Of a stretch of 64,000 bases of DNA, positions 18,682 through 19,681 are shown piece after piece. The stretch lies in NCBI RefSeq assembly GCF_965641715.1, contig NZ_OZ282455.1. The stretch is one strand, 5' to 3'. Positions within the stretch are counted from its first letter, which is position 1. Each line of letters starts with the position of its first letter. Source of the DNA: Escherichia coli (lineage in GTDB: Bacteria; Pseudomonadota; Gammaproteobacteria; Enterobacterales; Enterobacteriaceae). Position numbers and translations under genes: made by a program. The notes under the pieces are model-generated. The model saw only the letters and a program-made list of their open reading frames with translations. It did not search any database and was not told where the DNA came from.

Positions 18682-19272
18682 TTACGGGACGCTACTTTCA
18701 TTTATCTGTACGCGAACCTCCATTCCTGCGTCATGACAGGCCTGCAGCCACTGCGCCACTTCCAGCGGATCGCCCTCCAGGCGTACCACCCTGCCTTCTT
18801 TATTCCATAACTGCAGACAGGTGCTGCCGCCGAGACGTACCACAAAATCCCCACGGCAGGCCTGATACGTCATGCCGTTCAGCTCCACCGCCAGATCAAT
18901 GGCAGAAGTGCCGTCTGCGGGCAGACCTGCGGCCGGGACCAGCGGCAGTACGACGACTTCTGCCGCACGCTGTTCTGCCCGGAGGCGCTCCTGTTCTGCC
19001 AGCAGCAGAGGCTGTGCCACGGCCCGGCCGGCGTCCGTCAGCTCCACTGCCAGCTGCAGGTTCGGAGCGCGCAGGGTACGCAGCCAGCCGGCATCCTCCA
19101 GACGACGGCAGGAGGCGCGCAGGTTTGGCCCGTAGACCGGGGCTTCCCCGCTTCGCTCCAGCACCCGTTCTATGTCCCGCGTCAGCACGGGGCCCGGCCG
19201 TTTTTCATCAAGGGCAGCCAGCACAATCAGCACTCTCCGCTGCAGTGGCGACGGTCGGCGGCTCTGAGTCAT
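18682..19272 (-). CDS. hypothetical protein with N-terminal winged-helix-like region
   Basis: 196 aa, GC-rich; N-terminal ...LQRRVLIVLAALDEKRPGPVLTRDIERVLE... resembles wHTH; start overlaps stop of upstream 84-aa ORF. Confidence 0.4.
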   Translation of the reverse strand: MTQSRRPSPLQRRVLIVLAALDEKRPGPVLTRDIERVLERSGEAPVYGPNLRASCRRLEDAGWLRTLRAPNLQLAVELTDAGRAVAQPLLLAEQERLRAEQRAAEVVVLPLVPAAGLPADGTSAIDLAVELNGMTYQACRGDFVVRLGGSTCLQLWNKEGRVVRLEGDPLEVAQWLQACHDAGMEVRVQINESSVP

Positions 19273-19526
19273 TAACTGTCACCCTCCGACCAGATGAGTT
19301 TTTTGAGGCGCTGATAATCGGTATCGATGCGTTCCCGGGCCTGTGCGTGATTGTTCTGTGGCGCACCATGAATGGCCAGTTCATACCACAACCACAGCAG
19401 AGCTGAGGCCTTCAATTCACTGATACACCTGGCGCTCTGGTTGTCCTGCCCACATTCACGGATATTTTTTTCCGCTATTCGGGTTAGTTGCTCATAGCTG
19501 AGTGAAAACACCCTTTCTTCATCCAT
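19272..19526 (-). CDS. hypothetical small protein
   Basis: 84-aa ORF translationally coupled to downstream 196-aa gene; palindrome in its promoter region. Confidence 0.35.
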   Translation of the reverse strand: MDEERVFSLSYEQLTRIAEKNIRECGQDNQSARCISELKASALLWLWYELAIHGAPQNNHAQARERIDTDYQRLKKLIWSEGDS

Positions 19527-19597
19527 CCTGCACGCTCCATCTGATAATGTTCTGACAGGTAAAAATAATATCCTGCATGATTTGTGTGCTCCGGATT

Positions 19598-19681
19598 TGT
19601 GATAATATCAGATATGGTTTTGTCATAAATGATGAAAATCATATCTGATATGATTTTATGTGTGTTGCTCAATTATCACAT
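19598..19681. promoter_or_regulatory. large palindromic candidate operator
   Basis: Perfect 12-bp inverted repeat ATATCAGATATG (19605-19616) / CATATCTGATAT (19640-19651) nested inside GTGATAAT...ATTATCAC. Confidence 0.4.

What the first reader, a model, noticed from the sequence alone, without database searches (positions are those of the whole stretch)
19272..19681. Large nested palindrome upstream of a two-gene operon (84-aa protein plus winged-helix-like protein)
A perfect 12-bp inverted repeat (ATATCAGATATG at 19605-19616 and CATATCTGATAT at 19640-19651) is nested within GTGATAAT...ATTATCAC (19598-19681), about 80 bp upstream of the start at 19526. The two genes are coupled (ATGA at 19272) and the second has a wHTH-like N-terminus, suggesting an autoregulated module of unknown function.
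Basis: seen in the sequence. Interest (0 to 1): 0.4.

Follow-up and report, generated by a model that had tools for sequence, protein, structure and literature searches.

The report
Three-operator promoter of plasmid ydfA-ydeA operon
The palindrome is real, but it is two of three evenly spaced binding sites over the promoter of a very common plasmid gene pair (ydfA-ydeA), whose second protein is predicted to be a winged-helix repressor that most likely shuts off its own operon: an ordinary kind of switch that has not been described for this pair.

Summary
A perfect 12-bp inverted repeat lies at 19605-19616/19640-19651, and the two genes overlap by one base (TAATG).

The "nested palindrome" is better read as an array of three 21-bp operator-like palindromes, consensus AAATCATAY-N3-RTATGATTT. 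Their centres are 19646, 19610 and 19573, spaced 36-37 bp apart. The middle site covers an extended -10 (TGATATTAT). The outer arms are not conserved as a pair.

The genes are ydfA (84 aa) and ydeA (196 aa) of IncI/IncF plasmids. Sequence matching the locus occurs in 2096 of 5426 complete E. coli genomes. Positions and half-sites of all three operators are fixed in 13 modules, although YdfA falls to about 38% identity.

Best reading: YdeA dimers autorepress PydfA. In R64-type relatives this operon continues into the abortive-infection gene ibfA and fopA (published RT-PCR). Here a 350-aa orphan fills the ibfA slot.

This is a new member of a known kind. No binding experiment exists, and YdfA's role is unknown.

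The parts
19635..19657 (.). Operator OA: AAAATCATATCAGATATGATTTT on the gene strand. It is a perfect 11+1+11 palindrome, centre 19646, about -51 from the predicted transcription start.
   Evidence: Present at the same distance from the ATG (120-122 bp) in 13 modules.
19599..19621 (.). Operator OB: AAAACCATATCTGATATTATCAC on the gene strand, centre 19610, about -15. Its right half contains the extended -10.
   Evidence: The core TCTGATAT.AT is invariant in the 8-sequence alignment.
19562..19584 (.). Operator OC: CAAATCATGCAGGATATTATTTT on the gene strand, centre 19573, about +22. It is degenerate in this plasmid (14/16 half-site positions) and better in Klebsiella-type relatives.
19602..19610 (-). 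Extended -10 element TGATATTAT (hexamer TATTAT at 19607..19602).
   Evidence: My scan. It matches the BProm prediction for pUA1135: promoter 103 bp and transcription start 69 bp upstream of ydfA (PMC12111858). The start has not been mapped experimentally.
19624..19629 (-). Weak -35 TTTATG (3/6), 16-nt spacer. The predicted transcription start is near 19595.
19527..19550 (-). Conserved 5' UTR with Shine-Dalgarno GGAG (19538..19535): ACATTATCAGATGGAGCGTGCAGG.
   Evidence: 83-98% identity in the bin that holds it.
19272..19526 (-). ydfA, 84 aa. Acidic (pI 5.3), predicted three-helix bundle with an invariant N-terminal FSLSYEQ motif.
18682..19272 (-). ydeA, 196 aa. Winged helix (res 9-78), long helix (80-104), linker, and a beta-rich acidic C-terminal domain (127-190).
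19687..19731 (-). Conserved left edge of the module: (GA)TCCG-N14-CGGATCTGCRCGGCGGGAAAC. Similarity to all relatives starts here. Function unknown.
   Evidence: BLAST block 18681-19729.
19672..19680 (-). It is an extended -10-like string in this lineage only. Relatives have the conserved ATGATAAT element here, whose ATGAT matches the operator half-site.
17417..18469 (-). 350-aa orphan gene occupying the slot that holds ibfA in R64-type plasmids. Probably transcribed from PydfA (inferred).
16639..17241 (-). fopA (yafB), a ProQ/FinO-domain RNA chaperone. It is the last gene of the RT-PCR-defined unit in pUA1135. Here it also has its own promoter-like site (TGATATTAT at 17281..17273).

Best explanation
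The region is the promoter and operator of the plasmid operon that starts with ydfA and ydeA.

YdeA is a dimeric winged-helix protein of a family not yet catalogued. It most likely binds three 21-bp palindromic operators, AAATCATAY-N3-RTATGATTT, centred at about -51, -15 and +22 relative to the predicted transcription start.

The middle operator contains the extended -10 (TGATATTAT). Occupancy there would exclude RNA polymerase, so the operon represses itself.

The outer operators, 36-37 bp away on either side, would add cooperativity. The two outer sites are 73 bp apart, about 7 helical turns, and so lie on the same face of the DNA.

YdfA is made in step with YdeA through a 1-nt stop/start overlap. 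It is probably a protein partner that modulates YdeA rather than a DNA binder.

Whatever lies downstream inherits this control. That is the 350-aa orphan and probably fopA here, and the abortive-infection gene ibfA plus fopA in R64-type plasmids.

What the sequence and comparisons show: the sites, their conservation, their overlap with the promoter consensus, and the predicted fold. What is inferred: binding, repression, cooperativity, YdfA's role and read-through into the 350-aa gene.
For: 1. Site geometry. 39 operator instances in 13 modules sit at fixed distances from the ATG (about 120, 84 and 47 bp; spacing 36-37). Half-site positions +-3 to +-8 are nearly invariant and the central 3 bp are free, as expected for a dimeric HTH site.

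2. Promoter overlap. The best promoter on the gene strand is TGATATTAT at 19610..19602, inside OB. It matches the published prediction for pUA1135. TCTGATAT.AT is invariant.

4. Protein and site change together.
- The recognition helix and wing (PVYGPNLRASCRR[LM]E..GWLRTLRA.N.QLAVELT) are nearly invariant (three conservative substitutions) in all 12 modules that share the half-site, down to 60% overall identity.
- A stand-alone 46% homologue with a similar helix and no ydfA has 7 AATCAT/ATGATT in the 300 bp upstream, against 0.37 expected.
- Homologues at about 30% identity with a different helix show no enrichment.
- YdfA drops to 38-40% identity without any change in the half-site.

5. Locality. 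The operator occurs only at this promoter in the 64-kb window.

6. Conservation along the module. The wHTH-coding part and the promoter/5' UTR are the best-conserved segments.

7. Co-transcription of ydfA, ydeA, ibfA and proQ was shown by RT-PCR in pUA1135.
Against: - There is no binding, footprint, reporter or mapped transcription start for this or any orthologous promoter.
- The -35 is weak (3/6), and OA at about -51 could in principle activate rather than repress.
- The 36-37 bp spacing puts neighbouring sites on opposite faces of the helix, which is awkward for simple pairwise cooperativity.
- A module that only represses itself has no evident purpose in plasmids where the operon ends at ydeA. 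So other targets, or a function for YdfA or the YdeA C-terminal domain, are still missing.
- YdeA fails sequence membership of every catalogued wHTH family.
- A weak terminator-like hairpin (18560..18540) may limit read-through into the 350-aa gene.
Confidence: 0.65

Rival explanations
1. YdfA, alone or as the specificity subunit of a YdfA-YdeA complex, is what recognises the palindromes. YdeA would only assist or act elsewhere.
For: - ydfA always precedes ydeA and overlaps it in the plasmid modules. The stop/start overlap is 1 or 4 nt in the window and in the 9 relatives with both genes annotated.
- YdfA has an invariant N-terminal motif FSLSYEQ that looked like the strand of a ribbon-helix-helix fold.
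Against: - AF2 gives a three-helix bundle with no strand, and there is no DNA-binding structural match (best Foldseek E 0.77).
- YdfA is acidic (pI 5.3).
- YdfA diverges to 38-40% identity while the half-sites stay fixed.
- A ydfA-less homologue keeps AATCAT-rich upstream DNA.
Confidence: 0.08
2. The pair is a toxin-antitoxin or addiction module, AbiEi-like or a reversed type II system. The palindromes would be its conditionally cooperative operator.
For: - Weak Pfam AbiEi_4 hit on YdeA residues 18-68 (E 0.034, 14.7 bits against a 25-bit cut-off).
- Two small overlapping genes with a palindromic operator.
- Plasmid location among VapBC, RelE/ParE and abortive-infection genes.
Against: - Neither protein hits any toxin family in Pfam, NCBIfam or PADLOC.
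- There is no AbiEii-type nucleotidyltransferase. The downstream gene varies or is absent.
- ydeA is intact beside a frameshifted ydfA in L005.
- ydeA homologues occur alone.
- Deletion of the whole operon in pUA1135 was obtained without reported difficulty. That deletion removes both genes, so this point is weak.
Confidence: 0.08
3. The inverted repeats act as a DNA or RNA structure: a cruciform, a single-strand promoter of the Frpo/ssi type, or a terminator or attenuator hairpin, rather than as protein sites.
For: The 101-nt gene strand folds as ssDNA at -14.6 kcal/mol, z = -3.2 against shuffles, and pairs both the inner and the outer arms.
Against: - OA:OB complementarity falls from 18/23 to 14-16/23 in relatives with no compensating changes, while each site keeps its own symmetry.
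- The outer arms are not conserved as a pair.
- There is no Rfam match. The only hit is far below its threshold.
- The array lies mostly upstream of the predicted start, so it is not in the mRNA.
- The locus lies beside the replication region rather than next to oriT. That the leading region sits next to oriT is from my own knowledge of IncI1 plasmids.
Confidence: 0.04
4. A host factor such as Fur binds the AT-rich palindromes, and the plasmid proteins are irrelevant to them.
For: - TGATAAT and ATTATCA resemble Fur half-sites.
- ydfA of pS88 was reported 0.17-fold in iron-chelated LB (p = 0.119, not significant) (PMC3438092).
Against: - The best Fur-box match is 12/19, a score reached at 60 positions in the window.
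- The direction of the pS88 change is opposite to Fur derepression.
- The half-site tracks the YdeA recognition helix.
Confidence: 0.04

Closest known systems
ydfA-ydeA-ibfA-proQ(fopA) transcriptional unit of IncI1 plasmids pUA1135 and R64 (PMC12111858)
   Same: - Orthologous module: 89% nucleotide identity across 18681-19729 to an R64-type plasmid.
- Same promoter position as predicted there.
- Same flanking fopA.
   Different: - The slot between the ydeA stop codon and fopA holds a 350-aa orphan here instead of ibfA.
- That paper did not address the operators or what ydfA and ydeA do.
MarR / PadR / HxlR winged-helix autorepressors (for example MarR at marO, MepR, MftR)
   Same: - Predicted fold of YdeA residues 9-104.
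- Palindromic operators that overlap the promoter of the regulator's own operon.
   Different: - No sequence membership.
- An extra beta-rich acidic C-terminal domain with no match.
- Three sites at 36-37 bp periodicity.
- A small partner translated in step with it.
AbiEi antitoxin of type IV AbiE systems
   Same: - About 200-aa protein with an N-terminal wHTH and a second domain.
- From my own knowledge: AbiEi autorepresses through paired inverted repeats.
- Weak AbiEi_4 hit.
   Different: - The hit is below the curated threshold.
- No AbiEii nucleotidyltransferase partner.
- The partner gene is small, helical and upstream.
Small-antagonist plus repressor pairs such as SinI/SinR (recalled from memory; analogy only)
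   Same: A small helical protein is encoded immediately upstream of a DNA-binding repressor.
   Different: - Different DNA-binding fold.
- Here the two genes are translationally coupled.
- No interaction has been tested.

Membership tests
MarR/PadR/HxlR-type wHTH regulators | Winged helix-turn-helix fold (H1-H2-H3-wing) with a helical dimerisation element | tested here: met
MarR/PadR/HxlR-type wHTH regulators | Sequence match to the family profiles (Pfam MarR, PadR, HxlR) above the curated threshold | tested here: not met
   No Pfam or NCBIfam hit except AbiEi_4 at E 0.034. Weak PaaX hits (E 0.008) appear only in long relatives.
MarR/PadR/HxlR-type wHTH regulators | Binds a (pseudo)palindromic operator overlapping its own promoter | tested here: inconclusive
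   The sites, their overlap with the -10, and their co-variation with the recognition helix are shown in sequence. Binding itself cannot be tested with these tools.
AbiE type IV toxin-antitoxin (AbiEi/AbiEii) | AbiEi_4 wHTH domain above threshold | tested here: not met
   14.7 bits against a 25-bit cut-off.
AbiE type IV toxin-antitoxin (AbiEi/AbiEii) | Adjacent AbiEii nucleotidyltransferase toxin | tested here: not met
   The downstream gene is a 350-aa orphan here, an ATPase (IbfA) in R64-type plasmids, or absent.
Type II toxin-antitoxin | One partner belongs to a known toxin family, and loss of the antitoxin is not tolerated | tested here: not met
   No toxin family hits. ydeA is intact with ydfA frameshifted in L005, and stand-alone ydeA homologues exist. 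Toxicity itself was not tested.
Single-strand promoter or initiation hairpins of plasmid leading regions (Frpo/ssi) | A long hairpin maintained by compensatory change, located in the leading region | tested here: not met
   Arm complementarity decays without compensation. The locus lies next to the replication region.
Partition centromere with wHTH adaptor (TubR/tubC type) | Repeat array plus an NTPase motor in the same operon | tested here: not met
Fur box | Close match to GATAATGATAATCATTATC (I took at least 13-14 of 19 as the working threshold, from memory) | tested here: not met
   The best match is 12/19, a score reached at 60 positions in the window.

The most novel reading that the evidence does not exclude
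YdfA-YdeA is a portable regulatory head carried by a large share of enterobacterial plasmids. It gates a swappable cargo slot that begins exactly at the ydeA stop codon. The slot holds ibfA in R64-type plasmids and a 350-aa orphan here. The same head also gates the copy-number chaperone FopA. In this reading the fast-diverging body of YdfA acts as a sensor or anti-repressor. It would relieve YdeA repression on a specific cue, such as phage infection, arrival in a new host or a competing plasmid. Defence, anti-defence and replication control would then be switched together.
Probability: 0.15. Interest if true: 0.6.

Novelty: new member of a known kind. Interest (0 to 1): 0.35.

Why it matters
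- Prevalence. The module is on IncI, IncK/B/O and IncF plasmids of E. coli, Salmonella, Shigella and Klebsiella. Sequence matching the locus is in 2096 of 5426 complete E. coli genomes, and more than 5000 PLSDB records match the module. Yet no function has been published for either gene.
- What it may control. If YdeA controls this promoter, it sets the expression of a proven abortive-infection gene (ibfA) and of FopA. FopA is reported to bind the Inc antisense RNA of IncI1 replication control; that statement is from memory of the FopA papers and I did not read it here.
- Where that matters. These plasmids include major carriers of ESBL and AmpC resistance genes (from my own knowledge).
- Practical use. 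The 21-bp consensus and the three coordinates give a ready design for footprinting and reporter experiments.
- Annotation. The result would also give a name to an unannotated wHTH family and flags a gene-name collision with the chromosomal transporter ydeA.

Tried and rejected
- Ribbon-helix-helix guess for YdfA, from the FSLSYEQ motif. AF2 gives three helices and no strand, and fold search finds nothing.
- Long hairpin, cruciform or ssDNA promoter. The DNA folds in this plasmid, but the arms are not co-conserved.
- Rfam gave nothing meaningful.
- Fur box: 12/19 only.
- Looking for a wider regulon. The operator is unique to this promoter in the window.
Only 4 of 120 loci carried the module. 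It gave four more examples but no evidence for other targets.
- Phage collection: no YdeA homologue.
- Identity of the YdeA C-terminal domain. It is not matched. Both fold searches are dominated by the wHTH. A repeat match to a Listeria-Bacteroides repeat surface protein looks incidental.
- AcrVA2/FinQ lead for the 350-aa protein. The H-x-R-x-x-H spacing matches, but profile searches of the PDB find no AcrVA2.
- I could not model a YdfA:YdeA complex.

Full report

Yes. The window holds ATATCAGATATG at 19605-19616 and its exact reverse complement at 19640-19651. Around them lie TGTGATAAT (19598-19606) and ATTATCACA (19672-19680).

In first-order Markov simulations of the window, perfect inverted repeats with arms of at least 12 and loops up to 40 occur 0.12 times per 64 kb. 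The 17-mer core with up to 3 mismatches occurs nowhere else in the window.

Two minus-strand ORFs follow. One is 84 aa (19526..19272) and the other 196 aa (19272..18682). They overlap by one base. The junction reads TAATG, with stop TAA at 19274..19272 and ATG at 19272..19270. The coupling is therefore real, but it is not an ATGA/TGA overlap.

**2. What the palindrome really is**

19635-19657 is a perfect 11+1+11 palindrome, AAAATCATATC-A-GATATGATTTT on the gene strand. 19599-19621 is a second copy, and 19562-19584 is a third, weaker one.

I aligned the region upstream of the gene pair from 8 plasmids. I then added 5 more modules, giving 13 in all and 39 sites.
- The three sites sit at fixed distances from the ATG (about 120, 84 and 47 bp), with spacing of 36-37 bp.
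- The consensus is AAATCATAY-N3-RTATGATTT.
- Positions +-3 to +-8 are almost invariant, and the central three bases are free.
- This is the pattern expected for a dimeric helix-turn-helix protein.

The evidence does not fit a long hairpin.
- Complementarity between OA and OB falls from 18/23 here to 14-16/23 in Klebsiella-type plasmids, without compensating changes.
- The outer arms are not conserved as a pair.
- The strand does fold as ssDNA in this plasmid (-14.6 kcal/mol, z -3.2), but that follows from having repeated palindromes.
- Rfam finds nothing meaningful.

**3. Promoter**

The best sigma-70-like site on the gene strand is an extended -10, TGATATTAT (19610..19602). It has a weak -35, TTTATG (19629..19624), and a 16-nt spacer.

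These positions equal the BProm prediction published for the orthologous promoter of IncI1 plasmid pUA1135: promoter 103 bp and transcription start 69 bp upstream of ydfA (PMC12111858).

The -10 lies inside OB, and the string TCTGATAT.AT is invariant in the 8-sequence alignment. Relative to a start near 19595, the operator centres fall at about -51, -15 and +22.

**4. Where this is and what the genes are called**

The region is the backbone of an IncI-type plasmid next to the replication genes. It is 99.9% identical to p931IncI1 and three other plasmids.

The genes carry the old R64/ColIb names ydfA (84 aa) and ydeA (196 aa). Downstream on the same strand lie a 350-aa orphan and fopA (yafB), a ProQ/FinO-domain RNA chaperone.

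The module is very common.
- Sequence matching the 1351-bp query around it is found in 2096 of 5426 complete E. coli genomes, almost always on plasmids.
2684 of them cover at least 80% of it. They come from Escherichia, Klebsiella, Salmonella and Shigella, on IncI, IncK/B/O and IncF replicons.
- No phage record has it.

The conserved block in the window is 18681-19729. It starts at a conserved element, (GA)TCCG-N14-CGGATCTGCRCGGCGGGAAAC, and ends exactly at the ydeA stop codon.

What follows ydeA varies.
- R64-type plasmids have ibfA, an ATPase gene for abortive infection, and then fopA.
- This plasmid type has the 350-aa orphan and then fopA.
- Col-type and IncF ColV plasmids have nothing further; convergent genes follow.
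- Klebsiella IncFII(K) plasmids have a run of small genes including hha.

In pUA1135, RT-PCR showed that ydfA, ydeA, ibfA and proQ(fopA) are co-transcribed.

In this window I found no promoter-like site between ydeA and the 350-aa gene, and only a weak terminator-like hairpin. Read-through is therefore likely but not shown. fopA also has a promoter-like site of its own.

**5. The proteins**

Neither protein has a significant hit in Pfam, NCBIfam, PADLOC or the PDB by sequence. The only hit is a sub-threshold AbiEi_4 match on YdeA.

The YdeA family is small: 216 representatives at E of 0.001 or better among 1.84 billion proteins.

AF2 on a 21-sequence alignment gives a confident YdeA model (pLDDT 87).
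- A winged helix spans residues 9-78.
- A long helix spans 80-104.
- A low-confidence linker follows.
- A beta-rich domain spans 127-190.

The N-terminal half is basic (pI 10.9) and the C-terminal half acidic (pI 4.45).

YdfA (pLDDT 81) is an acidic three-helix bundle with no structural relative (best E 0.77).

**6. Which protein reads the operators?**

The evidence points to YdeA.
- The recognition helix and wing (PVYGPNLRASCRR[LM]E..GWLRTLRA.N.QLAVELT) are nearly invariant (three conservative substitutions) in all 12 relatives that share the half-site, even at 60% overall identity.
- The wHTH-coding part and the promoter/5' UTR are the best-conserved parts of the module.
- YdfA falls to 38-40% identity with no change in the half-site. 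In R64-type plasmids the body of ydfA is only 63-75% identical in DNA, while the flanking promoter and ydeA are 85-100%.
- A stand-alone homologue on a small Rep_3 plasmid (46% identity, similar helix, no ydfA nearby) has seven AATCAT/ATGATT in the 300 bp upstream, against 0.37 expected.
- Homologues at about 30% identity, with a different helix, show no such enrichment.

**7. Mechanism proposed**

YdeA dimers occupy OB and block the extended -10. OA and OC strengthen repression. They are 73 bp apart, about seven helical turns, so they lie on the same face of the helix.

The operon therefore represses itself, and downstream genes share that control. YdfA, made in fixed proportion through translational coupling, most likely binds YdeA and modulates it. 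Whether it helps or antagonises cannot be told from sequence.

Confidence is about 0.65. The sites, their conservation and the fold are shown. Binding, the sign of regulation and YdfA's role are inferred.

One gap remains. In plasmids where the operon ends at ydeA, a switch that only regulates itself has no evident purpose. Either there are other targets, or the pair has a second activity.

**8. Rivals**

- Toxin-antitoxin. There are no toxin family hits and the downstream partner varies. ydeA is intact next to a frameshifted ydfA in L005, where a 36-bp deletion has also fused OA and OB. Homologues also stand alone.
- Host factor such as Fur. The best match is 12/19, an unremarkable score.
- Partition site. 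There are only three sites, they lie over a promoter, the module has no conserved NTPase, and the plasmids carry separate ParA and ParM systems.

**9. Novelty and verdict**

This is an ordinary kind of device: an autoregulated winged-helix repressor with palindromic operators over its promoter.

The family is uncatalogued. The three-site geometry and consensus do not appear in the papers I could search. The module is very widespread and controls at least one proven phage-defence gene in relatives.

I rate it a new member of a known kind, interest 0.35.

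Noticed in passing
window 17417-18469 (minus strand): The 350-aa orphan in the ydeA-fopA slot belongs to a family spread across Proteobacteria (334 hits; precomputed Pfam PF26125, absent from the local Pfam copy) and is on 260 PLSDB plasmids. Its invariant C-terminal R-M-H305-L-R307-R-G-H310 has the H-x-R-x-x-H spacing reported as essential in the anti-CRISPR AcrVA2 and conserved in the fertility inhibitor FinQ (bioRxiv 10.1101/2022.11.29.518452). A profile search of the PDB finds no AcrVA2, so this is only a lead.
   Followed up: partly
window 19687-19731: A conserved element, (GA)TCCG-N14-CGGATCTGCRCGGCGGGAAAC, marks the exact upstream edge of the ydfA module in all relatives, and sequence beyond it is unrelated. 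It could be a recombination joint, a binding site or an insulator. Its function is unknown.
   Followed up: partly
window 19527-19550: The 5' UTR ACATTATCAGAYGGAGCGTGCAGG is 83-98% conserved even where the ydfA coding body is 58-68% identical, which is more than a Shine-Dalgarno sequence alone would need.
   Followed up: no
L005 5590-5830 (pZ1323HEC0300-2, NZ_CP148367.1): A natural variant has a 36-bp deletion, one operator period, that fuses OA and OB. It also has a frameshifted ydfA, while ydeA is intact at 95% identity.
   Followed up: partly
window 19941-24363: Several defence-like genes lie upstream of the module: a 229-aa protein (phrog_30303), a DUF3800 protein (413 aa), an AbiJ/HEPN-like protein (246 aa), a DUF2971 protein (274 aa) and a further 206-aa orphan. 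Relatives carry RES-domain, AAA ATPase, S-4TM and VapBC genes at the same place.
   Followed up: partly
window 17273-17281: The promoter-like site upstream of fopA uses the same extended -10 string (TGATATTAT) as PydfA, which equals the right half of operator OB. It has no matching left half-site.
   Followed up: no
window 14362-15939: A 525-aa ORF (14362-15939) whose sequence looks, by my own reading, like a methyl-accepting chemotaxis protein with an N-terminal PAS-like sensor; no domain search was run on it. p931IncI1 has no such gene, and its similarity to the window starts only at window 16129.
   Followed up: no
window 57415-57449, 37924-37959, 59432-59475, 48752-48791: These are other long perfect inverted repeats, with arms of 12-14 bp. 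The first lies within the Rfam AgrB match at 57415-57502. The one at 48752-48791 lies roughly 400 bp upstream of an 899-aa ORF at 49179 that I take, by size and position alone, to be the relaxase gene, so it may belong to oriT.
   Followed up: no
literature (PMC12987596): There is a gene-name collision. An IncK2 plasmid GWAS interprets a plasmid gene called ydeA as the chromosomal MFS arabinose exporter YdeA. If that gene is the plasmid ydeA studied here, a wHTH protein, the functional inference would be wrong. I could not check the sequence used.
   Followed up: no
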